Assembly (NCBI GenBank): GCA_964016885.1
Contig: OZ024741.1
Coordinates: 383,098,001 to 383,162,000, forward strand
DNA from: Eledone cirrhosa
Lineage: Eukaryota
Length of the DNA: 64,000 bases
Direction of reading: 5' to 3'
Both the position numbers and the translations under genes were made by a program. The notes beneath the pieces are model-generated. The model was not told the origin of the DNA, ran no database searches, and saw only the letters and a program-made list of their open reading frames with translations. Positions 19,074-63,911 of this stretch are shown piece by piece. Each line of letters opens with the position of its first letter. Position 1 is the first letter of the stretch.

Positions 19074-19159
19074 TATGGTGAACTAACTGTTGTGTTAATC
19101 CCTATATATATATACAAAAATCATTTTTTAGACCAAGGCTACAGGACTCACGACACCCG

Positions 19160-21430
19160 GTGGCACAAACCGATTTTGAAAAACCGAAAATAATTAACAT
19201 TTCAAATACAAACCTCTCAGCCCAACAAGTTAATATTCTCTCCAAAGGTCTGAAATTCACACCAACACCACAATACCCTAACCCCAACGAGATAAATGAC
19301 GATATCTCACACTTCTGTAGAAAATTACGTCTCACAGAGGAATTCTTTGACAAGGAGAATAACGACGAATCAATTGTACGGAATAAAAGCAGCTACAACC
19401 CAACAAAAGGTAGAAGCAGAGTTCTGGACAAATTTTGTGACCACATAGCTACCTTCCCATACCATGAACTACCGCAACCTAAACCCAAACCCAACACAAG
19501 TCGAAGGGAATGGGAGATTATCCATGAACTAAAAAACAATACGGACAATATAATTAAGGAAGCGGACAAGGGAAGTACTGTTGTCATTATGGAGGCTGAA
19601 AAATATAAACATTCTATGTTCTCTCTCTTACAAAATACTAATTACTACGAAAGAGTAAAAAACTACCAGCAATCAAAAACAATGACCAATTTAAACACAC
19701 TGATTTATCGATACCAGGAAGACCTAACTAAAAAGGAACGCGATTATTTAACAAATTTTGAATACAAAACCAGCAACCTTTACGGACTTCCGAAGATCCA
19801 CAAGTGTAAAATAATCAACGATGCCTGTAAACAATCCACCTCAGCCTGCGTGAACAGACAATACCCCACAGACCTTAAATTAAGACCAATTGTAGCGGGC
19901 CCACAATGTGAAACACACAGATTGAGCAACTTTATAGACATACTACTGAAACCAATACTGAAACACATACCAAGCCTTGTAAGAGACGATCTGGACCTCT
20001 TAAACCACCTCCCCAAACATGTCAACAACGACACTATTATTGTGTCTTTCGATGTAGTGAATCTCTACACAACGATCCCACACCAATACGGACTAGAAGC
20101 AATAGGATTCTGGCTAGAGAAATATCCCAATGAGATACCTGACAGAATAGAAAAAAGCTTCATCACCGAGGGATTAAAATTTATCCTACAGAACAACTTT
20201 TTTGATTTCGATAGCAATACATACAAGCAAATATCGAGGACTGCGATGGGTACAAAAGCCGCTCCAACTTATGCCAACTTAGTCATGACATACTTAGAAG
20301 TCCAGATATATGAACAGTCCAAATCAAAATACGGATTGAACTTCCACAAATATTTATCAGAGAATTGGAAACGCTACTTGGATGATTGCCTCATTCTTTG
20401 GTCCCACACACTCGACCAACTGAAGGATTTCAAAAACTTAATAAACGGCATCAATAACCACATCCAATTCACAATGGTATACAGCCAAGATCCACTCCCA
20501 TTTCTGGACATCTTAATCTTAAAAAAAGACACAAATATCGAAACTGACATACACTACGAACCAACAGATTCCAAACAATATCTGCTATTCACCTCCAACC
20601 ATCCAAAGCACACGAAGACGAACATTCCTTTTAACCTAGCAAGAAGAATTTGCACAATTGTCTCCAATTATGAAACGCGAAATAAAAGACTTCAAGAATT
20701 AAAGGAAATTCTACCCGGGAGAGAGTACCCACTATTACTAATAAATAATGGAATAGAAAGGGCTAAAGCAATAGGCATTGATGAATTACGGAAACAGAAA
20801 CAAATTCAAGGTACGTCCAATATTCTATCATATATCTCAACTCACAACCCAAGAAATGCGGAAGCTTACAACACTATTCACAAGAACATCCCACTACTAA
20901 AACAAAACCCAAGAATGAAAAAAGCCCTTGAAACACACAAAATAATCAAAAGCAAAAGACAGCCAAAATCACTGAAAACATTACTCACCAATGCCAAATT
21001 ACCTACCACAAACCCACAACCAAGTATCAAAAAATGTGGTCGCTCTAATTGTGGAACCTGCACTCACCTCTTTGAAGGCAACACGTATACATTTAAATCA
21101 GGACAAAATTTTGCTGTAAAAAATCACTTCACTTGCTCATCAAAAAATCTACTTTATGCCATTAAATGTAAAGTATGCAATGAAGATTATATAGGACAAA
21201 CTAAACTCACACTCAGAAACAGAATGACAGTTCATCGCCAACAATTACGAGATTCAACCACGAGACAGATACCACTAAGTGCACATCTAGACATTTGCGC
21301 AAGTAATAAGACACCCAAATTCCAAGTCTTGCCATTTTACCTTTGCGCTAACAATACAACAGAACAAATGCGAATAAATAAGGAAAATATGTTTATTCAA
21401 AAATATAGACCAACATTAAATAAGGTTTAA
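19160..21430 (+). CDS. Neptune-type PLE polyprotein (RT, Cys-rich linker, GIY-YIG endonuclease), 756 aa uninterrupted
   Basis: LSKGLKF, YGLPKIHK, RPIV, FDVVNLYT, TAMGT.AAP.YANL, RYLDD, PFLD, CG..C..C, LYAIKC..C...YIGQT...RNR...HR. Confidence 0.93.
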   Translation: MAQTDFEKPKIINISNTNLSAQQVNILSKGLKFTPTPQYPNPNEINDDISHFCRKLRLTEEFFDKENNDESIVRNKSSYNPTKGRSRVLDKFCDHIATFPYHELPQPKPKPNTSRREWEIIHELKNNTDNIIKEADKGSTVVIMEAEKYKHSMFSLLQNTNYYERVKNYQQSKTMTNLNTLIYRYQEDLTKKERDYLTNFEYKTSNLYGLPKIHKCKIINDACKQSTSACVNRQYPTDLKLRPIVAGPQCETHRLSNFIDILLKPILKHIPSLVRDDLDLLNHLPKHVNNDTIIVSFDVVNLYTTIPHQYGLEAIGFWLEKYPNEIPDRIEKSFITEGLKFILQNNFFDFDSNTYKQISRTAMGTKAAPTYANLVMTYLEVQIYEQSKSKYGLNFHKYLSENWKRYLDDCLILWSHTLDQLKDFKNLINGINNHIQFTMVYSQDPLPFLDILILKKDTNIETDIHYEPTDSKQYLLFTSNHPKHTKTNIPFNLARRICTIVSNYETRNKRLQELKEILPGREYPLLLINNGIERAKAIGIDELRKQKQIQGTSNILSYISTHNPRNAEAYNTIHKNIPLLKQNPRMKKALETHKIIKSKRQPKSLKTLLTNAKLPTTNPQPSIKKCGRSNCGTCTHLFEGNTYTFKSGQNFAVKNHFTCSSKNLLYAIKCKVCNEDYIGQTKLTLRNRMTVHRQQLRDSTTRQIPLSAHLDICASNKTPKFQVLPFYLCANNTTEQMRINKENMFIQKYRPTLNKV

Positions 21431-21898
21431 TATACATTATGTCAACACCATAATATGACATACACACACACACATAACACCTTCTACTTTAGAAAATAAA
21501 AACCCGAACTAAATAAACCTTAACATACGTTTGCACTGACAATACAACAGCAAACACGAATAAGGAAAATATGTTCATTCAAAAATATTCCTACTAAAAT
21601 AATCACTTTCCTACACACACACATACACACACACACAATATATATATATATTCTCTTCATCTTAACATGCTAACCATACTCCCACACACATAACACCCAT
21701 ACACACGCATAACAACCCCCACACCTAAAACTCCCTCCCCATTTCTACTAATAGAACCACTTTCCTAAAAAAATATATATATACACACACACAAAATATT
21801 AACATCTTAACATACTCGCACACACACACACATAACACCCATATACACACACACACAACTCCCTCCCCCATCTCTACTAATAGAATCATCTTCCAATA

Positions 21899-21945
<47 letters not shown>

Positions 21946-22456
21946 ACACACAAGCACACAAATAAACATACATATCTTCACTTCAATAGAAAATCTGAAC
22001 TCTGACACCCCAGCGAACTAACCATATTCACTGAACCAGAACAATTCTCCCAATCCCTTTTCACTTGACCACTAACTTTCCATTGTCTTAACATTCACTG
22101 TAAAGACTACAGAATAGTTTTCCAAATAAGGGCGCAAAAATGTAATGAAAACTTGTTCACGTGACAGCCAAATTTCATTTATAACCAACCAAAAAAAAGC
22201 CTCCGTGAGCCTCCTTTTTTCAAGTAAAAAGAAATTCAAACACTCATATATGAAAAAACAACCTGTGACAACCCCCCTCTTATTTGAAGAACTATTGTAA
22301 CGCGAACTGGCGCGAAATTTATTATAATTATTGACAAACCAATCAAATTACTTCTCGAAAAACCTGGCATTTCGAGCCACTTTTTTCATATAAAACAAGT
22401 AACATTCAGAGACCAACCAGATGGGAGAAAAACCACAGACCCTCCATCTCAACTCA

Positions 22457-22494
22457 CCTTTTGAAAAGCAGAAGAACTGCGAAAACGGTAAAGG
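22457..22494 (+). ncRNA. Minimal hammerhead, U3:A8 variant (loop III point change)
   Basis: cctt TTGAAAA gcag aagaa ctgc GAAA acgg TA aagg. Confidence 0.72.
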
Positions 22495-22719
22495 AACCAA
22501 ATAAATATATATATTTAAAAAAAAAATAAGACTCCAGTTGCATTTTCGATTTTATCTCTTTTTCTTTATACTTTCACTCGTGTAGGACACCTCGGTTATT
22601 TTTCATTTTGTAAAAAAAACCTCACTTTCTAATATATATATATATATATATACATATATATACATATATATATATACATATATTTATATATATATATGTG
22701 TATATGTATATATATGTAT

Positions 22720-23406
22720 ATGGAAGAGAAAGAAACGAAATTTCATTTCTCACTCTTAGTACGGCACTTAATTAAATGTAAGTATGTATGTATGTATACG
22801 TACATACATATATGTATACAGACGTATAGTAGTATGTATATATATACATACATGTACACATATATATATATATATGCACGTATCGGTTTACCGAACACTT
22901 ATTATAATGCTCGGTTTGTTTGTTTGTAAACAAACAAACACCCCGAATTACGCCGTACAGTGTTTAGGCAACCACGTCACCTTTTTTTCAACACTGATAC
23001 AGGAACGATGAACTAGTTTCAAGCCTATCAGCTATCGTCAATATCGTATACCTTCCTGCCAGATGGTTGAACGTCTGAAAGTATATACTTTCCCTATGCA
23101 TATTGACGGCTGAGCAGCCTAATTTGCATATCGAGTAAGTTCAGTCGGCTGGGCACACTGAAAACGATAAATGGAATAGAATGAAACGAAATTTCATTTC
23201 TCACTCTTAGTACGGCACTTACTTAAATGTATGTAAGTATGTATGTATACGTACATACATATATGTATACAGACGTACAGTAGTATGTATATATATACAT
23301 ACATGCACACACATATATATGCACGTATCGGTTTACCGAACACTTATTATAATGCTCGGTTTATTTGTTTGTAAACAAACAAACAGCCCGAATTACGCCG
23401 TACAGT

Positions 23407-23410
<4 letters not shown>
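22720..23410 (-). mobile_element. Family K non-coding ~450-bp unit, about 1.5 tandem copies (retrozyme-like)
   Basis: gaaacgaaatttcatttctcac recurs at 22732 and 23183; degenerate HHR at 23005-23047 (minus). Confidence 0.8.
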
Positions 23411-23502
<92 letters not shown>

Positions 23503-23514
23503 CTGTGTGTGTAT

Positions 23515-24053
23515 GTGAAGAGGCGGATTTTCAGGTCCTTACGAATGTCCGACTTCCACACTGATCTCAAGCTGTGGCACGCTGCCCAGGCTTTGGTCTT
23601 CCTCTCAACCCCACCATCTTCCTTATTGCTGTAGTGGAGTCTGTGCTGCTACACGGGTCTGAGACTTGGACACTGACCAAGAAACTCATTCAGATGGTGG
23701 ATGGGTGTTACACGAGAATGCTGAGGATGGTTCTGAACATTAATCAGTATACACTGAAGATGGGAAACTCAGAGCTGTATGGGATCCTCCCAAAAGTTAG
23801 CTCAAAAGTGACACAGAAGAGATTGAGATTCGTTGGACATGCTCACCGACATCCAGAGTTGACAATGAACTCAGTGCTCCTGTGGGAGCCCCTACATGGA
23901 CAGACTGGAAGAGGAAGACCAAGGTTAACGTATGTTGATGCCCTAAGGACAGACACTGATCTGTTGGAGACGCAGGCCATGGCAGCGATAATGAGGGACA
24001 GAGACTGCTGGAGAGAACTCGTCCATGGATCTCGGGAATTTTACCCTCCCTAG
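23515..24053 (+). mobile_element. RTE-clade LINE 3' fragment with a 5' inversion
   Basis: LLHGSETWTLT...RLRFVGH...RGRPRLTYVD; 23515-23622 is the reverse complement of the upstream part seen at 28765-28860. Confidence 0.85.
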
Positions 24054-24183
24054 AAACAAAATATATATATATAATTATATATTCGTGTACATATATTTTT
24101 GAATACACAATAACAAAATATAAACAAACGTATTTATTTCACGAGGCTCGATAAGGATAAATATATATCAACCCTAGAGCAAA

Positions 24184-28028: not shown

Positions 28029-28267
28029 TATGGTCAAGGGTTGTTGAAAAGTCACTGAAGTAAAGTAGTTGATGTTCAATATTTCATTTATTAGTAATTC
28101 TGACACGTGTTTCGATACAACATATCTTTGTCCTGTGAAATCTGAATTGTTGCACAATATAAAGCCAGAGAATATCTTAGTAGCAGCCCTTTAGAGAAGC
28201 CAAAGTTCCCTCCACATACACATAGACATATAAATATATATATATATATATATAGATGTATATCTAT

Positions 28268-29022
28268 CTAGGGCGGGTAAAATTCCCGAGATCCATGGAC
28301 GTGTTCTCTCCAGTGGTCTCTGTCCCTCATTATCGCTGCCATGTCCTGCGTCTCCAGCAGACCAATGTCTGTCCTTAGGGCATCGACATACGTTAACCCT
28401 GGTCTTCCTCTTCCAGTGAATCACTGTAGGGGCTCCCAGAGGAGCATTGAGTGCAATGTAAACTCTGCATGTCGGTGAGCATGTCTAGCTAACCTCAATC
28501 TCCTCTGTGTCACTTTTGAGCTGACTTTTGGACACTGAATTTGCCGACGACATAGTTTTGGTGACAAATACAGTGAAGGAAGTAGAGGATTTGATGCAGG
28601 AGGTTGAGACTGTGTCGATGAGTCTGGCGCTGAGAAGGAATTAGACTAAAACAAAGTACATCTGGTAGAGAATGTTGAGTAGCCACAGGGGATTACTAAT
28701 GTAGGCGGGAAGCCGCTAGAATTGGTTGAGGACTTCCTGTAATTGGGAGCAAAGATTGGCAATACGGAAGGTGATGTGGTTGAGAGGAAGAGCAAAGCCT
28801 GGGAGGCGTGCAACAGCTTGAGATCGGTGTGGAAGTAAAGACCTGAAAATCCGCCTCTTTATTGCTGTAGTGGAGTCTGTGCTGCTGTACGGGTCTGAGA
28901 CTTGGACACTGACCAAGAAACTCACTTAGATGTTGGATGGGTGCTACACAAGTATGACAAGGATGGCTCTGAACATTAATCAGTATACACTGTGGATGAA
29001 AAACTCAGAGCTGTATGGGAGA
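28268..29022. mobile_element. Rearranged RTE copy (3' end on minus 28268-28532, upstream part on plus ~28540-29022)
   Basis: Both parts match 23620-24053 in opposite orientations. Confidence 0.8.
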
Positions 29023-31598: not shown

Positions 31599-31913
31599 TG
31601 TAAATAAACAATTGTAAATACAGTAAATAAAACCCTTCTTGTACTGTTGACCATGTTATTCTTCACTCTTTCACTATATTTATATATATATTTCGTTTCT
31701 GAATTTGTTTAGCAAGATTCTTTATCTGAAATCGTGTGTTGAAACCGATATTGTTATACTTTGGGAGGGTCATGTTGCCAATAAGAAACACACGCACCAG
31801 TTGCTTTCACTTCAATTTATTATATATCTATAAATTTATAAATTTACAAATCTACAAATCTATAAATTTCTGGTTGGTTGGTTGGTTCCACAACCAGATA
31901 GTTGTTTATATAT

Positions 31914-31958
31914 AGTCATAGTCCTTTCGTTACGCACTCTGTGACCTCTTCAGTGACT
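31914..31958 (-). ncRNA. Minimal hammerhead of PLE family 3
   Basis: agtca CTGAAGA g gtcac agagtgc gtaac GAAA ggac TA tgact. Confidence 0.75.
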
Positions 31959-32159
31959 GGGGATTCCTTTCTTTCTGTGCCTTTCCTTTCTTCTGTCCTA
32001 CGCCATTTTGTTTCTGTGTGTGTGTTGTGTGCTCAGTTTGCGCATGCGCCACATCCGGGTGTCTGTGTGTGTTTGTGTTCATTTATCTATTTGTTTATTT
32101 ATTTACATGTTATTGGTTAGTTGTTTGTTCTATGTGTGTGTGTGTTTTCGTTTTGTCCT

Positions 32160-33253
32160 TAATTGTAAGTTGTGATGTTGCTGTTCCACTCATATTTTCT
32201 ATTTAATTTTGGTTGTAATTCTTTTATGTTTATTGCCTCTGTAATTTGTCTAAACATTGCATCTTTTCTGTGTGTAGATTCTATTTTTATTTCTATGTTC
32301 TCTAATTTACCCTTGTGTTCTATCTTAGCATGTTGGTAGAGTACAGGTGATTCTTTATTATCTTGAAGGTCTCACCAGTGTTCATTTATCCGTTCCCCTA
32401 TACTACGAGCTGTCTCACCTATGTGCACTATATTTTTGCTTCTACATTGTCCTTCAGTACATCTTATGCTATACACTACATTTCTAGTTTTACAGTTAAT
32501 ATGGGGGCTTATTTTACAGGTTATACATTTCTTATCTATACATGAGGGTCTTTGGAACGGGTATGTCTTGCTAATAAGTGTTTTTACGGAGGTACCTGGT
32601 CTTTCTACTATCTTAATATTGAGTTTATGTTTATTTAGGGCCCTTCTAAATTTGTAGGCTAGTTCGCCTCTTGGGGTTGTATCGATGAACATTACACTCT
32701 GGTATTTATTGCTATCATACCATGCGTTTATTCTATTGGCCTTGTTCCTAGTTCTTTCTATTCTATTCCAAAATTTGCTCCTATACAAGGGGCAGGTCCC
32801 ATTTATGTCATTATTTACCATTTTTTCCCATTTGGTTCTGGCTCCTCTATACACTCTGATTCTATCTCTCTGATTGTAGCCAGAGAACTGCATACGGTGG
32901 ATGAAGTGTTGTATGTGTCTCTCTAGTTCTTCGGGGTTGCACATGCGGGACACATTTCTCATCACCCGTACCAAATCCGCAATCAGTATGTTGATTTTGG
33001 TATGGTCCGAAATGGCCGAGTTTCGGTGGATCAGATGTTTGGAAGTCATGGGTTTGGCATAATGGGAATGGAGGATTTGTTTTTGGTTGTTAATGGTACC
33101 TAACCAGAGCTCTGTGTCTAGTACAGGTAATCGATGGTTGGGGTGTCTACTTGGGTAGTCTATAGTAACTCTAATGCTCTGGTGGATGGAGTTTGCTATT
33201 TGCTGGATGCTTTCCATTGTGTTTTTCTCTAGTTCCTGACTGTTCTCTAGTGT
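32160..33253 (-). pseudogene. PLE RT thumb + GIY-YIG fragment
   Basis: LPVLDTELW, KPMTS, C..KC..C, VVYSIRC...HIGET.RS..ER..EH; frame broken at ~32372. Confidence 0.85.
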
Positions 33254-33525
33254 ATATTTAAAGAATTACAACCAAAATTAAATAGAAAATATGAGTGGAA
33301 CAGCAACATCACAACTTACAATTAAGGACAAAACGAAAACACACACACACATAGAACAAACAACTAACCAATAACATGTAAATAAATAAACAAATAGATA
33401 AATGAACACAAACACACACAGACACCCGGATGTGGCGCATGCGCAAACTGAGCACACAACACACACACAGAAACAAAATGGCGTAGGACAGAAGAAAGGA
33501 AAGGCACAGAAAGAAAGGAATCCCC

Positions 33526-33570
33526 AGTCACTGAAAAGGTCACAGAGTGTGTGACGAAAGGACTATGACT
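33526..33570 (+). ncRNA. Hammerhead of PLE family 3, G8A mutant
   Basis: agtca CTGAAAA g gtcaca gagtg tgtgac GAAA ggac TA tgact. Confidence 0.6.
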
Positions 33571-36500
33571 ATATATAAACAACTATCTGGTTGTGGAACC
33601 AACCAACCAGAAATTTATAGATTTGTAGATTTGTAAATTTATAAATTTATAGATATATAATAAATTGAAGTGAAAGCAACTGGTGCGTGTGTTTCTTATT
33701 GGCAACATGACCCTCCCAAAGTATAACAATATATATATATTAATATATATATATATATATAAATATAACTTATATTACTGTCACCTTCAAAATTGTCTTT
33801 ACATTTTCAATGGTTCGCTAGAAATATGTAAGCAACGTTACTATATATTAAAGTCTGTGATATATGTTTAATATATTATAAATCAGTAGAACAGGAAAAA
33901 TAATTGACACAGTGTGATGACATGACATTAACAGAAAATTTGTGAGAAGACTATGGTCAATGAATTTAATTGAAATTTCGACTGATTTAATTGGGTTTCA
34001 AATGAGTATGGTGTTATGTTTGTTGTTTATCTAATTGCAGAAATGAGTTTTTTGCCGATGTTTATACAAGTGGACATAAGTGAATTTAGTTGTCAAATGG
34101 AGAGAGACAGATAAATAGTCAACTATGAAATACGAAAAGCGAGAAGGAATAAACACGATACATATTATGAGGTTAATAAATTTGTCAGATAATTCGAATA
34201 GTCTTATTGAGAAAGAAATGTATGTGTAGTTGAAAGCGGCTGTAAGTGGAGTGGTAAATGTGGATGGGTTCTGATGAGAATATCGGTGTTCTGATAAAGA
34301 AATAGAGAAGATTCATTGAAGCGTAGATTAAAGATGATATGGGTACAGGTGAGACGTTTAGTGATAAAACATGAATATTAACAGCGTATTATCGGCGAAT
34401 CGGTTCTATTAGAAAGTAAGGTAAAATTACGCATTGTTTCTGTATCGCTGCGCTTAAAATTCAGATCCGGCCGAGGTCGAAATTGACATTCATACTTTCG
34501 CTTCGATATATAATCGCGCACTCCACCTTCAAGGTCTAGGGATGAACATTCGTGGGGTATTTTTCCTGTCTCTTCACATTCTGAGGTTCTAGAGTAGCCT
34601 AAATGCGTGTCAGACTTAAACGTTCACAAGCTTTAACACCATCATTTAGACGCTGGATACATTTATCAGAGTCCAATCAAACACAATATTGCGGAGCAAA
34701 TTATTTTCATGATAAACTGGGACTTCAAATGGTCCTAATTCACCCTTATAGAATATCAACTCCAAGTTAATACTTTTATGTCCCATAAATCATTGCGAGT
34801 AAATTGACCGGTAAAAAATATATGAAAGTATCTACATCATAGCGAACTGAAACAACTCAATTTGCCTAATGACAAATACATTTCAACTATGCCTTAAAAA
34901 CTGCGTGCATTTCTTCAAAAATATTGATTTCTTATTTAGGCAGAAGGCCAACAAATTTTGGGGTGAGAAAAGTTGACTACCTTTAGATCATTATATTGCT
35001 GGTCCTTTATTTTATCGACCACAGACGTATGAAAGGCAACATTGACTCCAGTAGCATTAGGACCCCAAAACTCAAATCAACTTTGACCTGCAGAAATTCC
35101 AACATTGCACAGTTCATGTCATAAATGTTAATTGCCTGAGCAATATGGAAATATATAGCATCCAAATATTTGTTTCTTTGCCTGTCCAAAAGAAAATTCT
35201 GTCTATATAAACCTTGAACTTGTTTCAATCTCCTTTCGCAGGCATAAAATCCCCCTTCCTTAGCAAAATCTTAAGATATCACCAAAACTCGCACTTCCCG
35301 AATTTACTTACATATATGTTGTAATTTCAGGTGCACATATATGTCAATATATGTGCACCTGAAATTACAACACTTGAACATATTTCGAATCACCTCACCA
35401 ATTCCTGAACATGCAATGTTCCCAATTATATATATAATCCCTATGTACCAATATGCGACAAGTCTGACTTTTTGTAAGCAGGTACAGTCTATCCGATGAG
35501 CTCCAATATCAACCGTCATGCAGGCTATCTGAACGAAACATATTCGAAAACCAAATATTTTTATTATGAACCATTAAATCACTAATCTTTCCTTCATTCG
35601 CTAATAGCCCAGTCATAAACTGCCCTCGTATCTCTATTATTTGTTCTCATTCGAGGTATACGAAGCCAACCTGTCCAATCACCCCATCTTTTCTGCCCTT
35701 TGATATCCACTGCACTTCTCACCAATTATGTGATAAAACCTACCTTCCATTATTGCTACTCTACCTTTTCCTATCAAACGCTATTCACATCCTCAACATT
35801 TTGTTTACATCGTGAACATGAAATCCCTACATAGCAATATCCCCAACAAAGACCGAGTGGTATTTCTTATACATATGAAGCAAATCTCTGAAACCTTTAG
35901 TACTCTACGGCGAATTAATCTATCATTTTGCTTCAACAAATGCCTCACTAAGATCTAAGATAACATTAATATATGAAAAATATGTGAGTGAATTACTTCC
36001 TCAATATTACTACAAACTATACATATTCATTAAATGGATAATAAATATTTAGTATTTAAAAGTTTTATTCTAAAATAGATAAGATTGGAATTAACTCAAT
36101 GTAATCATTCTTTATGGATATTTGGCAAATATTGTCATGGTTAGTTTAGAATAGAGTGTTGTTATGAAAACAAACATCTCGAAGCCCATATTATGTTCAA
36201 CCTGGTGATGCTGTTAGTCATGAACTTATATTTACGTCAGGAAGACATTATATATTGACTAACTGCCAATTTTCAAGAATTTAAATATTTTTAGTCATCC
36301 TTGTAAAATGTTCACTGGTGGAAATCAATATTCTCCGAGTTAGATACAGACAATCATGATTAAAAGCGTTTAATCATTTCGGTGGCATCTTAATCACTTC
36401 TTTGTAAAACTAAAATTGAATAATTGAATATATTAGTTTCATATTTTAATCGAGTTTTGGATTAATTTGCAAAGTTGTCACAGGATTCAACTGATTATCT

Positions 36501-37925: not shown

Positions 37926-39334
37926 ATTAATCAACACGAAATCGGGTGCGATACTTTCAGGGAGCTTATTACACGTTTGCCTTGCCTTTCAAGTTATATA
38001 TAACGCTGTATTCAATTATCAGATCTACACTAAAAAGAAACAGAAAAGAGAAATTGTACTACTTCTCCATCATAATTTCTTGTAGAATTTTAAAAATCAT
38101 TGCTTTTCGTAAAATGAATAATATGAATTATAAGTCCTTTTCTTCACAGTGCAGGAAGATAAAGAATTGTGTAATAATGAGAAACGTACTGAATATAATG
38201 ATGACATCCCGCAGATAATTCAAGAGAGACTTTGAATTGAAGCCAAGTATTCACTGAAGCTAATAGAATTCGATGGATATCACTCTTGTATCGTAAATTG
38301 TGGTGCAGATAAAGAGAAATATTTACACTTTGGAAGTTAAATGAAACTAATATTCATTTTTTTAAACTTTACGTAGGGGTTATTTCACTTTTCTGATAAC
38401 GGTATTAAAAACGACGGTAAATTAAATGAAACTTCTGCTGAAAAATGTCTGTATTGAAATGTGTCTAAATATTTGAATGAGAAAAACGGATTATGCTGAG
38501 AAACCAGTAAAGTTTATTTCAAATATTTACGGACGTTGAAATCATTATAAGTTCATGAACTGTAAACATTTCTAGCGAGAGAATCATGTCAAACACTGTT
38601 AATACAATATATATAAAACTCTTTCTTTAATATACTAAGATAACATGATATTCAAATGTCCGGACTTTTAATGGTTTGTTGACTACTAAATGAGATAAAA
38701 TGAAAAAGATCTAATTTTTACAAAGTCAGACATTTAAATATTACGTGTGTGAATAAAGAAAGGGGTAGAAAAAGGATTAAAGGTAAACAGAAAATGAAGA
38801 AAGTATAAGTCTCCGATTGTAAACTGTTTGCAATGCAAAATTAAAAATTATGGGAAGTGTTTATTGATTGTTGAAAGTAACAGTAAATTTATATGTAATG
38901 AAAAGCAGTATATTTAAAACCTTGCAATTTTTATAGAATATTTCGGCAAATATTTGCAAACATAAATAGATAAAATGCATAAGACAAGTTGAGGGTGGAC
39001 TTACTAAGAAGCCTAATGTGAAAAATAAATATTCTTAAGAAATATGAAAGAAATGAACTCAAATTTAATACACATATGATTATAGATTGAGATTTGTTAT
39101 TAAAAATAAACACACACCTTTAGAGATTCGAATTATATGAATTCAATGGTAGGAATTACGCGCAAAGCGAAATAATTCTTTCATTTGTAATGAAGCTTAG
39201 AGGTAGATGTATTAAATAGTAATAGAGGATTATAGTGAATTAGAAGTCTGCTCTTACAAACGCGTGAGGTGTTAAAAATGGAAACGTGCTTGTAAAGGTT
39301 AATGTAAAAAATACTGAGTAATAAGTATATATAT

Positions 39335-39570
39335 ATGGAAAAAAATGAAACGAAATTTCGTTTCTCACTCTTAGTATGGCTGTTACTTAAATATAAGTAT
39401 GTATACGTACATACACTTATGTATACAGACTACAATAGTATGTATATATACACATACATGCACACATATATATATGTACGTATGGATTCACGGAACATTT
39501 ATTATAATGCTCGGTGTGTTTGTAAATAAACATCCCGATTAAGCCGTACAGTGTCTAGCAACCATAGTTG
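39335..39570 (-). mobile_element. Family K partial unit
   Basis: Matches 53354-53605. Confidence 0.75.
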
Positions 39571-39638
39571 CCCTTTTGTATAAATATATGTAAGTATGTA
39601 TACATATATGTATACATATATGTATGTACGTATACATA

Positions 39639-43532: not shown

Positions 43533-43565
<33 letters not shown>

Positions 43566-43695
43566 GTGAGGTTTTTTTTACAAAATGAAAAATAACCGAG
43601 GTGTCCTACACGAGTGGAAGTATAAAGAAAAAGGGATGAAATCGAAAATGCAACTGAAGTCTTATTTTTTTAAAAATATATATATTTATTTGATT

Positions 43696-43733
43696 CCTTT
43701 ACCGGTTTCGCAGTTCTTCTGCTTTTCAAAAGG
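43696..43733 (-). ncRNA. Minimal hammerhead, U3:A8 variant
   Basis: Reverse complement of the 682-719 motif. Confidence 0.8.
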
Positions 43734-44248
43734 TGAGTTGAGATGGAGGGTCTGTGGTTTTTCTCACATCTGGTTGGTCTCTAAATGTTACTTGTTTTAT
43801 ATGGAAAAACTGGCTCGAAAACCAAGTTTTTCGAGAAGTAATTTGATTGGTTTGTCAATAATTATAATAAATTTCGCGCCAGTTCGCGTTACAATAGTTC
43901 TTCAAATAAGAGAGGGGGGGGGGGGGGTTGTCACAGGTTGTTTTTTCATATATGAGTGTTTGAATTTCTTTTTACTTGAAAAAATGAGGCTCACGAAGGC
44001 TTTTTTTTGGTTGGTTATAAATGAAATTTGGCTGTCACGTGAACAAGTTTTCATTACATTTTTGCGCCCTTATTTGGAAAACTATTCTGTAGTCTATAGT
44101 GAATGTTATGACGATGGAGAGATAGTGGTCAAGGGAAAAGGGATTGGGAGAAATGTTCTGGTTCAGTGAATATGGCCAGCTGTCAGAGTTCAGGTGTCAG
44201 AGTTCAGATTTTCTATTGAGACTGAAGATATGTGTTTATTTGTGTGCT

Positions 44249-44287
<39 letters not shown>

Positions 44288-44533
44288 ATTGGAAGATGAT
44301 TCTATTAGTAGAGATGGGGGAGGGAGTTGTGTGTGTGTGTATATGGGTGTTATGTGTGTGTGTGCGAGTATGTTAGATAGAGAGAATATATATTTTTTGT
44401 GTGTGTGTATATATATATGTGTGTAGTGGTTCTATTAGTAGAAATGGGGAGGGTGTTGTAGGTGTGGGGTTTTTTTATGTGTGTGTATGGGTGTTATGTG
44501 TGTGGGAGTATGGTTAGCATGTTAAGATGAAGA

Positions 44534-44570
<37 letters not shown>

Positions 44571-45187
44571 GTGTGTGTATGTGTGTGTGTAGGAAAATGA
44601 TTCCTTTAGTAGGAATATTTTTGAATGAACATATTTTCCTGACTTTTTCGTGTTTGCTGTTGTATTGCCAGTGCAAACGTATGTTTAAGGTTTATTTAGT
44701 TCGGGTTTTTATTTTCTAAAGTAGGTGTTATGTGTGTGTGTGTATGTCATATTGTGGTGTTGACATAATGTATATTAAACCTTATTTAATGTTGGTCTAT
44801 ATTTTTGAATAAACATATTTTCCTTATTTATTCGCATTTGTTCTGTTGTATTGTTAGCGCAAAGGTAAAATGGGAAGACTTGGAATTTGGGTGTCTTATT
44901 ACTTGCGCAAATGTCTAGATGTGCACTTAGTGGTATTTGTCTCGTGGTTGGATCTCGTAACTGTTGGCGATGAACTGTCATTCTGTTTCTGAGTGTGAGT
45001 TTAGTTTGTCCTATATAATCTTCATTGCATCCTTTACATTTAATGGCATAAATTAGATTTTTTGATGAGCAAGTGAAGTGATTTTTTACAGTAAAATTTT
45101 GTCCTGATTTAAATGTATACGTGTTGCCTTCAATGAGGTGAGTGCAGGTTCCACAATTAGAGCGACCACATTTTTTGATACTTGGTT

Positions 45188-45796
45188 ATTCTATCATATA
45201 TCTCAACACACAACCCAAGAAATGCGGAAGCTTACAACACTATTCACAATAACATCCCACTACTAAAACAAAACCCAAGAATGAAAAAAGCCCTTGAAAC
45301 ACACAAAATAATTAAAAGCAAAAGACAACCAAAATCACTGAAAACATTACTCACCAATGCCAAATTACCTACCACAAACCCACAACCAAGTATCAAAAAA
45401 TGTGGTCGCTCTAATTGTGGAACCTGCACTCACCTCATTGAAGGCAACACGTATACATTTAAATCAGGACAAAATTTTACTGTAAAAAATCACTTCACTT
45501 GCTCATCAAAAAATCTAATTTATGCCATTAAATGTAAAGGATGCAATGAAGATTATATAGGACAAACTAAACTCACACTCAGAAACAGAATGACAGTTCA
45601 TCGCCAACAGTTACGAGATCCAACCACGAGACAAATACCACTAAGTGCACATCTAGACATTTGCGCAAGTAATAAGACACCCAAATTCCAAGTCTTCCCA
45701 TTTTACCTTTGCGCTAACAATACAACAGAACAAATGCGAATAAATAAGGAAAATATGTTTATTCAAAAATATAGACCAACATTAAATAAGGTTTAA
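45188..45796 (+). pseudogene. PLE linker + GIY-YIG endonuclease fragment
   Basis: Nearly identical to the last ~200 aa of the 19160 ORF. Confidence 0.9.
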
Positions 45797-46000
45797 TATA
45801 CATTATGTCAACACCACAATATGACATACACACACACACATAACACCTACTTTAGAAAATAAAAACCCGAACTAAATAAACCTTAAACATACGTTTGCAC
45901 TGGCAATACAACAGCAAACACGAAAAAGTCAGGAAAATATGTTCATTCAAAAATATTCCTACTAAAGGAATCATTTTCCTACACACACACATACACACAC

Positions 46001-46039
<39 letters not shown>

Positions 46040-46285
46040 TCTTCATCTTAACATGCTAACCATACTCCCACACACATAACACCCATACACACACATAAAA
46101 AAACCCCACACCTACAACACCCTCCCCATTTCTACTAATAGAACCACTACACACATATATATATACACACACACAAAAAATATATATTCTCTCTATCTAA
46201 CATACTCGCACACACACACATAACACCCATATACACACACACACAACTCCCTCCCCCATCTCTACTAATAGAATCATCTTCCAAT

Positions 46286-46320
<35 letters not shown>

Positions 46321-46832
46321 AGCACACAAATAAACACATATCTTCAGTCTCAATAGAAAATCTGAACTCTGACACCTGAACTCTGACAGCTGGCCATATT
46401 CACTGAACCAGAACATTTCTCCCAATCCCTTTTCCCTTGACCACTATCTCTCCATCGTCATAACATTCACTATAGACTACAGAATAGTTTTCCAAATAAG
46501 GGCGCAAAAATGTAATGAAAACTTGTTCACGTGACAGCCAAATTTCATTTATAACCAACCCAAAAAAAGCCTTCGTGAGCCTCATTTTTTCAAGTAAAAA
46601 GAAATTCAAACACTCATATATGAAAAAACAACCTGTGACAACCCCCCCCCCCTCTCTTATTTGAAGAACTATTGTAACGCGAACTGGCGCGAAATTTATT
46701 ATAATTATTGACAAACCAATCAAATTACTTCTCGAAAAACTTGGTTTTCGAGCCAGTTTTTCCATATAAAACAAGTAACATTTAGAGACCAACCAGATGT
46801 GAGAAAAACCACAGACCCTCCATCTCAACTCA

Positions 46833-46870
46833 CCTTTTGAAAAGCAGAAGAACTGCGAAACCGGTAAAGG
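46833..46870 (+). ncRNA. Minimal hammerhead, U3:A8 variant
   Basis: Same sequence as 682-719. Confidence 0.8.
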
Positions 46871-46938
46871 AATCAAATAAATATATATATTTTAAAAAAA
46901 ATAAGACTTCAGTTGCATTTTCGATTTCATCCCTTTTT

Positions 46939-46972
<34 letters not shown>

Positions 46973-50450: not shown

Positions 50451-50628
50451 ATATATATATATATATATATTTATATATTGTTATACTTTGCGCGGGTCAT
50501 GTTGCCAATAAGAAACACACGCACCACTAGCTTTCACTTCAATTTATTATAATAAATTCATAAATTTAGGAATTTATAAATTTCTGGTTGGTTGGTTGGT
50601 TCCACAAGCAGATAGTTGTTTATATATT

Positions 50629-50671
50629 GTCAAAGTTCTTTCGTCACACATTATGTGACCTCTTCAGTGAC
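50629..50671 (-). ncRNA. Minimal hammerhead of PLE family 3
   Basis: gtca CTGAAGA g gtcaca taatg tgtgac GAAA gaac TT tgac. Confidence 0.77.
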
Positions 50672-51420
50672 TGTGGATTCTTTTCTTTGTTTTTGTGCCT
50701 CTCCTTTGTTCTGTCCTACGCCATTTTGTTTCTGTGTGTGTGTTGTGTGCTCAGTCTGCGCATGCGCCACATCCGGGTGTCTGTGTGTGTTTATATTTGT
50801 TTATTTATTTGTTTATTTATATGTTACCGGTTGGTTGTTTGTTCTATGTGTGTGTGTGTTTTCATTTTGTCCTTAATTGTAAGTTGTGATGTTGCTGTTC
50901 CACTCATATTTTCTATTTAATTTTGGTTGTAATTCTTTTATGTTTATTGCCTCTGTGATTTGTCTAAACATTGCGTCTTTTCTGTGTGTAGATTCTATTT
51001 TTATTCCTATGTTCTCTAATTTACCCTGATGTTCTATTTTAGCATGTTGGTAGAGTACAGATCATTCTTTACTATCTTGAAGGTCTCGCCAGTGTACATT
51101 TATCCGTTCCCCTACACTACGAGCTGTCTCACCTATGTACACTATATTTTTGTCTCTACATTGTCCTTCAGTACATCTTATGCTATACACTATATTTCTA
51201 GTTTTACAGTTAATATGGGGGTTTATTTTACAGGTTATACATTTCTTATCTATACATGGGGGTCTTTGGAAAGGGTATGTCTTGCTAATAAGTGTTTTTA
51301 CGGAGGTACCTGGTCTTTCTACTATCTTAATATTGAGTTTGGAAGAAGCGGGCTCCTATGGTGAGGAGATCCATCTGCTGTCAACACCCTTCGAAAGGAG
51401 GGCTGTGGATGCCGTAGCTA

Positions 51421-52632
51421 ATGATACGTAAACACGCATTAAGGCTACGGCACCTTCAGATATTCCTCTCCGGTCAACCGGTGTGGACCCCGTTTGTGAG
51501 GCGAGCCTTTCCCAGACTCGTCTTACTCACAGAGCTGCAATCCTGGGTCAAGCAAAGACCGAGAAAACTGGGCGCCTGGCACACCGTGTGTGCCCAGGCG
51601 CTCACGGCTCTCTGGCAGGCGGACCCGGCTGTCAGTGGGGCTAACATTGCTAGTAACTACAGACTGTCCTACTTCCTCTCTCTGATGATACGCCCCATCA
51701 TTGAAATGTCCCCAGATGTATGTGACAGCACCGAGGACCTCCTCAGCAGAATCGGCGAGGTTAACCGATCTAGGGACCTAACAAACTGCATAATAGGTAG
51801 TATGGATGTTGTGTCCCTGTATCCATCTATTGACGTGGATTTTGCTGTGGAGAAATGCGTAGAAGTGATCAGTGAGAGCAATGTTGAGTTCCGTGGGATT
51901 GATACCAGTGAGCTGGGACTCCTACTTAAACTTACCTATAGTAATAATTACCTAGACACATATGACCTTAGCAACCTGTGCCCTACAAGACCAGCAAGAG
52001 GCAGACCACCTACCATTACCTCAATGGCCAAGAAAACCCACACAGATAGATGGAACGGGTGGACCAGAGCCATACGGACACCCGAAAACCACGATGAACT
52101 GAAGAAAATGATTGCACATGCGGTAGGGGCCAGCATAAAACTAACCCTTAAGGAACATATGTTCAAATTTAATGGAAAAACATATGCCCAAGAGGAAGGA
52201 GCAGCCATTGGTGTTAGCATTGCAAGCGACATAGATAACTTATTCATGGTATGGTGGGACAGTAGACTTAAACTTAAACTTAAAGAACAATTAGAAGACC
52301 CCTTAACCCTGATAATGTACTCCCGCTACGTTGACGATATAAACATCGTAGTTAAGACACCCCCACTAGAGAACAGTCAGGAACTAGAGAAAAACACAAT
52401 GGAAAGCATCCAGCAAATAGCTAACTCCATCCACCAGAGTATTAGAGTTACTATAGACTACCCAAGTAAACACCCCAACCATCGATCACCTGTACTAGAC
52501 ACAGAGCTCTGGTTAGATACCATTAATAACAAAAAACAAATCCTCCATTCCCATTATGCCAAACCCATGACTTCCAAACATCTGATCCACCGAAGCTCAG
52601 CTGTTCGGACCATACCAAAATCAACATACTGA
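51421..52632 (+). pseudogene. Chimeric ORF: Tx1/L1-like fragment fused in frame to PLE RT core
   Basis: RT motifs GSMDVVSLYPSI, Q.EG.AIG, RYVDD, PVLD; the first ~70 aa are GC-rich and unlike PLE sequence. Confidence 0.75.
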
Positions 52633-53299
52633 TTGCGGATTTTGGTACGGGTGATGAGAAACGTGTCCCGCATGTGCAACCCCGAAGAACTAGAGAGACA
52701 CAGCACTTCATCCACCGTATGCAGTTCTCTGGTTACAATCAGAGAGATAGAATCAGAGTGTATAGAGGAGCCAGAACCAAATGGGAAAAAATGGTAAATA
52801 ATGAAACAAATGGGACCTGCAACATCACAACTTACAATTAAGGACAAAATGAAAACACACACACACATAGAACAAACAACCAACCGGTAACATATAAATA
52901 AACAAATAAATAAACAAATATAAACACACACAGACACACGGATGTGGCGCATGCGCAGACTGAGAACACAACACACACACAGAAACAAAATGGCGTAGGA
53001 CAGAACAAAGGAGAGGCACAAAAACAAAGAAAATAATCCCCAGTCACTAAAGAGGTCACATAATGTGTGACGAAAGAACTTTGACAATATATAATCAACT
53101 ATCTGCTTGTGGAACCAACCAACCAACAAGACATTTATAAATTCCTAAATTTATAAATTTATTATAATAAATTGAAGTGAAAGCTACTGGTGCGTGTGTT
53201 TCTTATTTTCAACATGACCCACCCAAAGTATAACAATATCGGTCAACACACGATTTCAGATAAAGAGTCTTCCTAAACAAATTCAAAAACGAAATATAG

Positions 53300-53353
<54 letters not shown>

Positions 53354-53357
<4 letters not shown>

Positions 53358-54373
53358 GGAATAGAATGAAACGACATTTCATTTCTCACTCTTAGTACGG
53401 CACTTACTTAAATGTAAGTGTGCATGTATGTATACGTACATACATATATGCATACAGACGTACAGTAGTATGTATATATGTATACATACATGCACAGATA
53501 TATATATGCACGTATCGGTTTACCGAACATTTATTATAATGCACGGTTTGCTTGTTTGTAAACAAACAAACAGCCCGAATTACGCCGTACAGTGTTTAGG
53601 CAACCACGTCACCTTTTTGTTCAACACTGACACAGGAACGATGTACTAGTTTCAAGCTTATTAGCTATCGTCAGCATCGTAGACCTTCCTGCCAGATGGT
53701 TCAACGTTTGAAAGTATATATTTTCCTTATGCATATTAACGGCTGAGTAGCCTAATTTGCATATCGAGTGAGTTCAGTCGGCCGGGCACACCGAAAACGA
53801 TAAATGGAATAGAATGAAACGAAATTTCTTTTCTCACTCTTAGTACGGCACTAACTTAAATGTAAGTGTGTATGTATGTATGTATGTATGTATACGTACA
53901 TACATATATGTATACAGACGTACATAGTATGTATATATATACATACATGCACACACATATATACACATATATCAACTCATTCTATCCCATTTATCGTGTT
54001 CGGTGTGCCCGGCCGACTGAACTCACTCGATATGCAAATTAGGCTGCTCAGACGTTGATATGCATAAGGAAAGTATATACTTTCAGATGTTCAACCATCT
54101 GGCAGGAAGGTATACGATGCTGACGGTAGCTAATAAGCTTGAAACGAGTACATCGTTCTTGTGTCAGTGTTGTACAAAAAGGTGACGTGGTTGCCTAAAC
54201 ACTGTACGGCGTAATTCGGGCTGTTTGTTTGTTTACAAACAGACAAACTGCGCATTATAATAAATGTTCGGTAAACTGATACGTGCATATGTATATGTGC
54301 ATGTATGTATATATATACATACTACTGTACGTCTGTATACATATATGTATGTACGTATACATACATACATACT

Positions 54374-54378
<5 letters not shown>
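53354..54378. mobile_element. Family K: ~1.3 tandem units plus an inverted unit
   Basis: aaatggaatagaatg at 53354 and 53802 (448-bp period); ~53979-54378 inverted. Confidence 0.88.
53638..53680 (-). ncRNA. Minimal hammerhead of family K, intact
   Basis: acgatg CTGACGA t agct aata agct t GAAA ctag TA catcgt: 6-bp stem I, palindromic ACTAGT. Confidence 0.85.
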
Positions 54379-54407
<29 letters not shown>

Positions 54408-60140: not shown

Positions 60141-60234
60141 ATATATATATATATGAAAAAGTCAAATAGAAATAAAAAACAGAACAATGAAGAAATTTAA
60201 GATTAGTTTCACGTTTGATATAGAAGGAAATTAT

Positions 60235-60270
60235 TCTTAACGTTTCAGAAGCTAGTCCTTCATCAGAAAA
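60235..60270 (-). ncRNA. Ultra-minimal hammerhead
   Basis: tttt CTGATGA agga ctagc ttct GAAA cg TT aaga; palindromic AACGTT. Confidence 0.72.
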
Positions 60271-60402
60271 TAGGATACTAAATTAAAGAAGAAATGGAAC
60301 GATTGAGGAAGGAGACAAGTGCCAGAAATTAAAACAATTTCTTGAACTGAAACACGTCTATTCAATCACCGTCTCTTGCGAAACATACATATGTATGTAT
60401 AT

Positions 60403-61010: not shown

Positions 61011-61124
61011 GCGAAATTTATTATACTTATTCACATAAAATCATCAACCAACTAAATTATTTTCTAAGAACCTAGCATTTCGAGCCACTTTTTTCCATAT
61101 AAAACAGAAGTAACATCCGAATAT

Positions 61125-61770
<646 letters not shown>

Positions 61771-62556
61771 CGGCTAATAATTCTTCTCTCTCTATACAAA
61801 TATTTGTGTTTATATATATATATATATATATATATTTCTTTAAGTCGTTTGGAAACGTCGACAATGCAGATGGGTAAATCTCCGGGTAACACGATCCGGT
61901 GGTGGAGAGAGAGATGTAAGTGCGTGTACGTTGAGATGCGTGGTGTGTATAAGACTGTAACGTGTAGTGGAATCAAGGAAAGAGCGTAAAGGATAAAAAT
62001 AAAATTAACAACACGAGAAAGAGTTACCTTGGGAGAGATTTAATTGTCCCTATATATTTCGGATTCAACTGGGTTTTTCCGGGGGGTGGGGAGGTTGTCC
62101 GTCGGAAAGGTGCGAAACGTGTCCTTCGCTGTTCGTTGTTTTGAAACTAGGGCCACAATTAAACAACCGATCCGAGAGAAGCGAAATGAGATGGTTGGTT
62201 TAAGTTAACAAACGATGCAGCAACACACGCACACACACACAGGCGAGACAGCAACACACGCACACACACACACACAACACAAACTTGTAATAGAAATAAT
62301 AATACTAATAATAGGTTTATAGTGAACATTGTCCAGATCCCAGTGGTGTAAATATCCATGAGTAATCATGGTTACATTGACACGCATGGGCAGTTATTTT
62401 CTAAACAGCGACATAAAAATAGCATTGCTCAACTCATATATATATATATACCATCATATATCCAATGAACTACAGAAAAACTCAGTCTATGCATTGCAAA
62501 TATAAGAACAATATATTGAATAGTTATGATTAACATGATTCAATACATGTATATAA

Positions 62557-63561: not shown

Positions 63562-63688
63562 AAAGTTCTATTTAAATTGTTGGGATACAACAAGCAAATA
63601 TTTTTATAACTGATATAAAGCACTCGACAAGTATTTGGAGTAAATATACGATATTAACAAATGGAAACTATATTTATAAAACCATATC

Positions 63689-63753
63689 TATTTTATTATA
63701 CATATTTCAAGGATACCATGTTAACTTATTGTATGCTTTCATCAGACAAAATA
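63689..63753 (-). ncRNA. Minimal hammerhead, left arm
   Basis: Reverse complement of 63808-63872 with one stem II substitution. Confidence 0.8.
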
Positions 63754-63807
63754 CAATATATACCAGTTTTATAAAACAATATTTATTTATAAAACTGGTA
63801 TATATTG

Positions 63808-63872
63808 TATTTTGTCTGATGAAAGCATACCATAAGTTAACATGGTATCCTTGAAATATGTATAATAAAATA
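63808..63872 (+). ncRNA. Minimal hammerhead, right arm
   Basis: tattttgt CTGATGA aagc ataccat aagttaac atggtat cctt GAAA tatgta TA ataaaata; 8-bp stem I. Confidence 0.82.
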
Positions 63873-63911
63873 GATATGGTTTTATAAATATAGTTTCCAT
63901 TTGTTAATATC

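What the first reader, a model, noticed from the sequence alone, without database searches (positions are those of the whole stretch)
22720..23410. Family K: non-coding ~450-nt hammerhead unit in partial tandems, a candidate circular-RNA retrozyme
Seen: head-to-tail 1.3-1.5-mers (22720, 53354), a junction-spanning inverted copy (61430-61770) and a partial copy (39335), with no ORF and a clean minimal hammerhead (53638-53680, minus). The unit also has a perfect 16-bp palindrome gaaagtatatactttc and short hairpins. Established: non-LTR retrozymes in other metazoans are tandem HHR repeats yielding circRNA and are probably mobilised by PLEs. Inference: greater-than-unit-length copies reflect rolling reverse transcription of a ~450-nt circle. 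Three of four copies lie next to PLE pLTR sequence.
Basis: partly seen in the sequence, partly recalled or inferred. Interest (0 to 1): 0.75.

Follow-up and report, generated by a model that had tools for sequence, protein, structure and literature searches.

The report
Penelope-driven hammerhead retrozyme, twin-primed ends
This is a 448-base protein-less repeat, present at tens of thousands of places in this animal genome, whose units carry a hammerhead (self-cutting RNA) motif and a small-RNA-gene promoter motif; it is a new member of a known class (animal retrozymes), likely pasted into TA microsatellites by a borrowed Penelope-type enzyme that likely copies one RNA from both cut DNA ends, while the proposed RNA circle is untested.

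Summary
Family K is a 448-449-bp ORF-less unit with a type I hammerhead motif; only 1 of the 4 window copies with hammerhead sequence keeps an intact core, and it is not the flagged one. There are about 40,000 loci (8 clusters in 590 kb of random DNA). The insertions carry Penelope (PLE) marks: (TA)n targets, two fixed 3' ends about 60 nt apart, variable 5' ends and inverted arms. Of 40 inverted insertions with two canonical ends, 38 have one end of each kind. K is not a pLTR: 72 of 75 long arms run into another K unit, not an ORF. Lying next to pLTRs is not enriched (6/98 vs 29/503). The unit holds the upstream motif of the host's U6/MRP/tRNA-Sec genes, but at U1/U2-like spacing from the TATA box. 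A sense-strand A>G excess, shared between arms, points to an edited RNA template. Evidence for a circle is mixed; cleavage and RNA are untested, and the partner PLE is unidentified. The scan noted twin-primed ends and snRNA-type promoters before, in sister families here and in other genomes. Verdict: new member of animal non-LTR retrozymes.

The parts
22717..23411 (-). K copy 1 (the flagged copy): single arm of 1.55 units, 3' end at site B in (TA)n, 5' end at unit position 46
23000..23058 (-). Hammerhead of copy 1, with mutated core (C3U) and GUU site; predicted cut 23011/23010
23077..23092 (.). Perfect 16-bp palindrome holding the TATA box of the internal promoter motif
23119..23130 (-). 12-nt upstream element matching the host U6/MRP/U6atac/tRNA-Sec promoter motif, 42 nt before the TATA box
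22720..22780 (-). PLE-type 'tail' between 3'-end site A (unit ~231-235) and site B (unit 292), with a hairpin
39331..39579 (-). K copy 3: 0.6-unit B-ended arm, about 80% identical, stops short of the hammerhead core
53352..53970 (-). K copy 2, B-ended arm (1.37 units)
53633..53691 (-). Intact type I hammerhead motif with extended stem I; predicted cut 53644/53643
53752..53763 (-). Upstream promoter element of copy 2
53975..54381 (+). K copy 2, inverted A-ended arm (about 0.9 unit) with an A9G hammerhead at 54103-54161
61123..61320 (-). K copy 4, B-ended arm of an older subfamily
61430..61773 (+). K copy 4, inverted junction-spanning arm with degenerate hammerhead and non-canonical 3' end

Best explanation
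Family K is a protein-less 448-bp repeat with a hammerhead motif in each unit, likely copied as RNA into (TA)n microsatellites by the reverse transcriptase/endonuclease of a Penelope-like element, from templates that likely include a unit-length circle. Proposed cycle: (1, inferred) arrays are transcribed from the snRNA-type promoter inside each unit, starting near unit position 400 at the start of the ribozyme. Pol II is somewhat more likely than Pol III, given the U1/U2-like spacing and the T4-T5 runs that templates read through. (2, inferred) The weak, probably dimer-dependent hammerhead cuts only part of the time, leaving multimers and some monomers that a host ligase closes. (3, inferred from shown scars) The RNA is partly A-to-I edited. 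(4, pattern shown, chemistry inferred) The PLE enzyme nicks both DNA strands up to 13 bp apart; one end primes at site A and the other at site B on the same RNA. The cDNAs run through the ribozyme junction and are joined head to head by microhomology. Most products, including all four window copies, are dead ends with at most one ribozyme per arm; arrays with two or more are the likely sources.
For: Copy number: 8 clusters in 59 random 10-kb stretches, about 40,600 loci (95% CI 17,500-80,000), 0.9% of DNA. Ends: 138 of 155 arms end at A or B, and 116 of those 138 are followed by (TA)4. Of 54 two-armed clusters, 38 are A+B, 2 A+A, 0 B+B, 12 have one odd end and 2 touch a locus edge (38/40, p=7e-10). 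In sister family K2, 12 of 13 are A+B and 1 has an odd end; duplications of up to 13 bp flank its 2 non-TA sites. Two coding PLE families in the window show the same long/short end pairs. Closed unit: 72 of 75 arms reaching unit 293 continue into K tail. Ribozyme: core intact in 93 of 108 copies; K versus K2 (69% identical) shows compensatory changes at 3 of 5 stem Ia pairs and 2 of 4 stem II pairs. The circular unit folds at z -4.5 (K2 -8.9) with stems I and II formed. Promoter motif: present in 7 of 7 Pol III type-3 genes, 0 of 8 U1/U2 genes and not in RNase P; once outside K/K2 in 590 kb; 12/13 conserved K vs K2; also in two further hammerhead families. RNA template: A>G 61 vs T>C 41 events on the sense strand (p=0.029), other pairs symmetric; A>G is shared between units or arms in 9 of 35 cases vs 10 of 254 for other changes (p=8e-5). 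One haplotype runs through both arms and all units of K2 loci L199, L201, L203, L204, L211, L213; L131 repeats three rare A>G changes in two successive units.
Against: No RNA data: expression, cleavage and circles are untested. Mixed unit types in K2 loci L208 and L209, and an extra A>G cluster in only one of the two L131 units, do not fit a monomer circle for those insertions. 5' ends are about twofold enriched just downstream of the cut site (27 of 133 in unit 1-50, p=0.003), which hints at some linear cut templates; none falls on the cut itself, and downstream versus upstream is not significant (p=0.23). The motif-to-TATA spacing (41-43) differs from the Pol III genes (46-48), and the 3' half of the element scores below zero on both host profiles for K and K2, so the promoter and polymerase are unproven. 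No homology was found to four window pLTRs or to a fifth PLE family, so the partner is not identified. The A>G excess is modest. 11 of 53 inverted joints are over-aligned in the simple-repeat part, which blurs arm lengths. Most loci were the best hits of three queries, not a random sample.
Confidence: 0.55

Rival explanations
1. Same PLE-mobilised element and same twin priming, but the templates are uncut or partly cut linear multimers from source arrays. No circle is needed, and arrays regrow by template jumping or DNA-level duplication.
For: The ribozyme is of a weak type (U.U in stem II, 1-bp stem III). In the anole PLE, uncleaved RNA is the dominant substrate in vitro (PMC11167929). Mixed-unit arrays L208 and L209, the latter with a 4-unit period; unit-specific edits in L131; 5' stops enriched after the cut site.
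Against: 5' truncation would shorten arrays every generation unless something regenerates them (inference). Locus-private changes run through all units that cover the site in both arms (K2 L201, L212). Related retrozymes in coral, mussel and axolotl make circles (PMC7229834).
Confidence: 0.35
2. K is the pLTR of a coding PLE that was not sampled, and the copies are its truncated products.
For: PLE-type ends. One K 5' end joins directly to a Neptune-like RT ORF (L148). Not all ~40,000 loci were seen.
Against: 72 of 75 long arms continue into K, not into an ORF. The L148 family has its own, different pLTR and ribozyme in 19 other copies. 5' flanks of 48 single arms are heterogeneous.
Confidence: 0.05
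3. K is a DNA-level repeat (minisatellite, MITE or Helitron-like) with an incidental hammerhead motif.
For: Palindromes and hairpins; the 4-unit periodic variants in K2 L209 could be unequal exchange.
Against: Fixed 3' and variable 5' ends, A+B pairing, strand-specific A>G excess and compensatory changes in the ribozyme.
Confidence: 0.03

Closest known systems
Animal non-LTR retrozymes (coral, mussel, axolotl; Cervera and de la Pena 2020, PMC7229834, parts 2-4 of 6 read; Li, Clavereau and Pollet 2026 preprint 10.64898/2026.07.22.740005, parts 1-3 of 5 read)
   Same: 150-450-bp ORF-less tandem units with a type I hammerhead, GC under 50% (38%), alongside PLEs. The U.U at the base of stem II and the 1-bp stem III with a palindromic tetraloop are each described for axolotl ribozymes.
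   Different: Mostly dispersed 0.1-1.6-unit arms in inverted pairs rather than long tandems. No pLTR relative was found, unlike 24 of 57 Xenopus families with Repbase homologues. The parts read describe neither fixed paired 3' ends nor a promoter. Circles are shown there, not here.
EN+ Penelope-like elements (Craig et al. 2021, PMC8557442, passages; Arkhipova et al. 2013, PMC3846280, passages; Frangieh et al. 2024, PMC11167929, parts 1-2 of 4)
   Same: Partial tandems, an inverted 5'-truncated copy, a tail at one end only, (TA)n or AT-rich targets, 8-10-bp duplications there versus up to 13 here, and two internal RT start sites.
   Different: No RT/GIY-YIG ORF. The tail is about 60 nt (K2 about 70) rather than 30-40. 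The strict one-A-one-B pairing is counted here, whereas the anole study saw no start-site difference between strands in vitro.
Newt satellite 2 and Schistosoma Sm-alpha (Coats et al. 1994 not held; seen only as cited in PMC2220036 and PMC6765202 passages)
   Same: Hammerhead repeat with an internal promoter just upstream of the ribozyme. The newt repeat uses an snRNA-type promoter and Pol II; tandem copies let one unit's promoter drive the next.
   Different: K's element matches the host Pol III-type upstream motif but has Pol II snRNA-like spacing; transcription is untested. Sm-alpha is Pol III transcribed.

Membership tests
Animal non-LTR retrozyme | Short (150-450 bp) tandemly repeated unit | tested here: met
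   Period 448-449; arms up to 4.3 units
Animal non-LTR retrozyme | Type I hammerhead motif in each unit | tested here: met
   Core intact in 93 of 108 copies; stems covary with K2; Rfam only sub-threshold
Animal non-LTR retrozyme | No protein-coding capacity, no LTR structure | tested here: met
   no tRNA gene; PBS/PPT not searched
Animal non-LTR retrozyme | At least two consecutive complete ribozymes ('active' in Li et al.) | tested here: met
   12 of 155 arms genome-wide, 0 in the window
Animal non-LTR retrozyme | Target duplication longer than 4 bp when present | tested here: inconclusive
   Up to 13 bp at 2 non-TA sites of sister K2; not readable inside (TA)n for K
Animal non-LTR retrozyme | Self-cleavage of the transcript | not testable with these tools
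   Needs in vitro transcription
Animal non-LTR retrozyme | Monomer-length circular RNA in tissues | not testable with these tools
   Needs RNA from the organism
Autonomous EN+ PLE or its pLTR | RT plus GIY-YIG ORF joined to the repeat | tested here: not met
   72 of 75 long arms close on K; no homology to five PLE families' pLTRs
PLE-type insertion (works like) | Partial tandem, inverted 5'-truncated copy, tail at one end, microsatellite target | tested here: met
Type 3 Pol III (U6-type) promoter | Host upstream element at about -77 | tested here: met
   5' half scores 19.6 bits, as the host Pol III genes do (17-20)
Type 3 Pol III (U6-type) promoter | Element-to-TATA spacing of the host Pol III genes (46-48) | tested here: not met
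   41-43 in K, K2, K3, K4
Pol II snRNA (U1/U2-type) promoter | TCAGT core 26-27 nt before the TATA-like box | tested here: inconclusive
   Position matches; sequence exact in K3, one mismatch in K and K4, two in K2; profile score negative for K and K2

The most novel reading that the evidence does not exclude
K and its sister families are self-promoted RNA circles with a hybrid snRNA promoter (Pol III-type upstream motif at Pol II spacing). A dimeric Penelope enzyme copies one edited circle from two fixed sites at once, one per DNA strand. This would explain the PLE tail and inverted ends, and tie animal retrozymes to a specific PLE partner, possibly the Neptune-like family joined directly to K at L021 and L148.
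Probability: 0.3. Interest if true: 0.7.

Novelty: new member of a known kind. Interest (0 to 1): 0.5.

Why it matters
How animal retrozymes are transcribed and which enzyme moves them is proposed but not shown in the papers read, and the PLE 'tail' and inverted ends have only partial explanations. K and the very young K2 give sharp predictions: two priming sites paired one per strand, a stagger of up to 13 bp, a start site near the ribozyme and a defined promoter. These can be tested in an existing in vitro PLE assay. K alone makes up about 0.9% of the genome. The class itself is known, so the value lies in the mechanism, not the element.

Tried and rejected
No RNA holder listed. Four contig runs of unrecorded kind were laid and say nothing on expression or circles. 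The whole-window Rfam scan listed no hammerhead among the 150 of 193 rows shown; the miRNA hits are simple repeats and palindromes. Adjacency to pLTRs as evidence of partnership: rejected. Homology of K or K2 to four window pLTRs: none beat shuffles. L148's Neptune-like family as K's parent: rejected, it has its own pLTR. A K-K2 chimera at L206: rejected, it is K2 inserted into the TA tract of an older K. Pol III terminators as the 3' ends: rejected, because the B junctions at non-TA sites include bases beyond K2's T5 run and site A is not at a T run. A pile-up of 5' ends exactly at the cut site: not seen. A114G as an editing hotspot: a query artefact (1 of 108 outside the loci found with that query); query-derived sites were dropped before the final count. 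Within-array versus between-locus divergence in K (4.2% vs 5.6%, star-like) does not separate circle from multimer. No A box was found on either strand; one B-box-like 9-mer on the antisense strand was set aside as chance. Literature searches listed no paper on retrozymes in cephalopods or on paired A/B priming; subscription papers are mostly not held, and no supplements were read.

Full report
Observation. The unit is real and lies on the minus strand of the flagged stretch. Numbering from the base after the predicted cut (unit position 1 = window 53643), the window has four clusters: 22717-23411, 39331-39579, 53352-54381 and 61123-61773. The hammerhead is type I: stem I of 5 bp plus 6 bp beyond an internal loop, core CUGACGA, a U.U pair then a 4-bp stem II, GAAA, and a 1-bp stem III with a palindromic CUAG loop. 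It is intact only at 53633-53691. The flagged copy has C3U and a GUU site. There is no real ORF and no tRNA gene. The window also holds several coding PLE families (clade names are my recall, not tested). The genome is 3.0 Gb; 'octopus-like' is my recall and the wording of earlier scan notes.

Abundance and architecture. Fifty-nine evenly spaced 10-kb stretches held 8 clusters, i.e. about 40,600 loci (17,500-80,000) and 0.9% of DNA. With the loci of three own-genome searches (8 duplicate or window-derived loci dropped), 102 clusters and 155 arms were mapped. 138 arms end at site A (unit ~231-235) or site B (292), and 116 of these run into (TA)n; 5' ends vary. Of 54 inverted insertions, 38 are A+B, 2 A+A, none B+B, 12 have one odd end and 2 touch an edge (p=7e-10 for 38/40). 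86 of 138 arms cross the ribozyme junction; 12 of 155 arms carry two or more complete ribozymes. The young copies lie about 2% from the family majority, in a star-like pattern.

Sister family K2. A 466-bp unit, 69% identical and colinear with K, was found in a random stretch. Its best copies are 100% identical across chromosomes. In 17 stretches, 12 of 13 inverted insertions are A+B at homologous sites, with arrays up to about 11 units. Two insertions outside (TA)n have duplications of up to 13 bp, with 1-2 nt of microhomology at each primed end. This is the geometry expected if both nicks prime cDNA. A tail at one end of inverted PLE insertions is known (PMC8557442, PMC3846280 passages), and two internal RT start sites define it in vitro (PMC11167929). 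Two coding PLE families in the window show the same long/short pairs.

Not a pLTR. 72 of 75 arms that reach unit 293 continue into the K tail. There is no homology to four window pLTRs or to a fifth, Neptune-like family. Three of four window clusters do adjoin pLTRs, but 6 of 98 clusters elsewhere do, against 29 of 503 random (TA)8+ tracts. Shared targets explain the adjacency. Two direct, TA-free junctions link K to the Neptune-like family (L148, L021). They could be template switches or insertion-linked deletions, and L148 was how the family was chosen, so this is a weak lead.

Promoter. K and K2 share a 12-nt motif (12/13 positions conserved against 69% overall) followed by a TATA box inside the palindrome. 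The same motif lies at -76 to -79 of all 7 Pol III type-3 genes examined (3 U6, MRP, U6atac, 2 tRNA-Sec) and in none of 8 U1/U2 genes or RNase P. Other fetched U6 and U6atac hits lacked it: two interrupted by an insertion and five likely pseudogenes. It occurs once outside K/K2 in 590 kb. Two more hammerhead families carry it. All four families space it 41-43 nt from TATA, against 46-48 in Pol III genes; this puts a TCAG-like word where U1/U2 have TCAGT. In insects the 3' half of the element helps set the polymerase (PMC1761439, abstract and passages), and newt satellite 2 is reported as Pol II with an snRNA promoter (cited). I therefore lean to Pol II, which also fits read-through of T4-T5 runs, but the 3'-half scores for K and K2 fit neither profile. 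TATA at -30 puts the start near unit 400, at stem I of the ribozyme (inference).

RNA template. Following an earlier scan note on editing scars, I counted substitutions in 88 young insertions after removing old-subfamily loci, CpG sites and sites where the query copies differ. A>G exceeds T>C on the ribozyme-sense strand (61 vs 41, p=0.029); the five other pairs are symmetric. A>G is shared between units or arms far more often than other changes (9/35 vs 10/254). L104, L124 and L134 share such changes across both arms. This supports an edited RNA template and one template for both arms, although inheritance from a source locus is not excluded.

Circle or multimer. For a circle: uniform haplotypes through whole K2 arrays, locus-private changes in all units, three rare edits repeated in two rounds of L131, a stable circular fold, and precedent in PMC7229834. 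For multimers: mixed units in L208 and L209, a further edit cluster in one L131 unit only, a twofold excess of 5' stops just after the cut site, and a weak ribozyme. Both probably occur. I put 0.55 on circles contributing and 0.35 on linear multimers alone. Eleven of 53 joints are over-aligned, so arm lengths are approximate.

Verdict. K is a new member of the animal non-LTR retrozymes. It works like a non-autonomous PLE but is not a PLE or a pLTR. My searches found no paper on this family or on paired priming sites. Those notes are not independent support. Interest 0.5.

Noticed in passing
L037:725-1254; L199-L214: Very young sister family K2 (466 bp, 100%-identical dispersed arrays up to about 11 units), implying a recently active partner PLE. 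A variant that breaks a T5 run is present in 6 of 17 stretches.
   Followed up: yes
L064, L212, L023 (K3); L004:440-580 (K4): Two further hammerhead families with the same upstream motif and 41-43-nt TATA spacing.
   Followed up: partly
L034:9150-10000: 310-bp tandem hammerhead repeat with a U.U in stem II and no such promoter motif found.
   Followed up: no
all loci: 63 non-K hammerhead motifs of many families among the loci scanned, often as inverted pairs (also window 63687-63874); the genome is very rich in them.
   Followed up: partly
window 19082-22629, 43562-46941, 436-792: Poseidon-like PLE with a 782-aa open frame (RT + GIY-YIG); its inverted copies pair a long and a short end about 63 nt apart.
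   Followed up: partly
window 31687-33732, 50475-53298: A second PLE family with inverted insertions pairing ends about 60 nt apart.
   Followed up: partly
L021:2385-2480; L148:1852-2494; L240-L258; window 60228-60276: Neptune-like coding PLE joined directly to K twice; a hammerhead similar to its pLTR ribozyme also lies in the window. Weak partner candidate.
   Followed up: partly
L229-L236, L162-L164, L222: The host's U1 and U2 genes have a TATA-like box near -30 and a TCAGT core near -57; RNase P RNA has the TCAGT word and lacks the U6-type motif.
   Followed up: partly
L209: K2 array with a 4-unit higher-order period of variants, some hitting the promoter motif.
   Followed up: partly
runs X4, X6: Contigs from runs labelled organisms B and C carry K-like pieces (about 235 nt with 21 differences and 20 gaps in X6) at low depth; K may occur in related species.
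   Followed up: no
window 23518-24054, 28267-28972: Fragments of another repeat with an ORF that looks like a LINE C-terminal region (recalled; no Pfam hit), directly beside K copy 1.
   Followed up: no
L156, L161: Some U6 tandem copies have a SINE-like insertion between the promoter and the gene.
   Followed up: no
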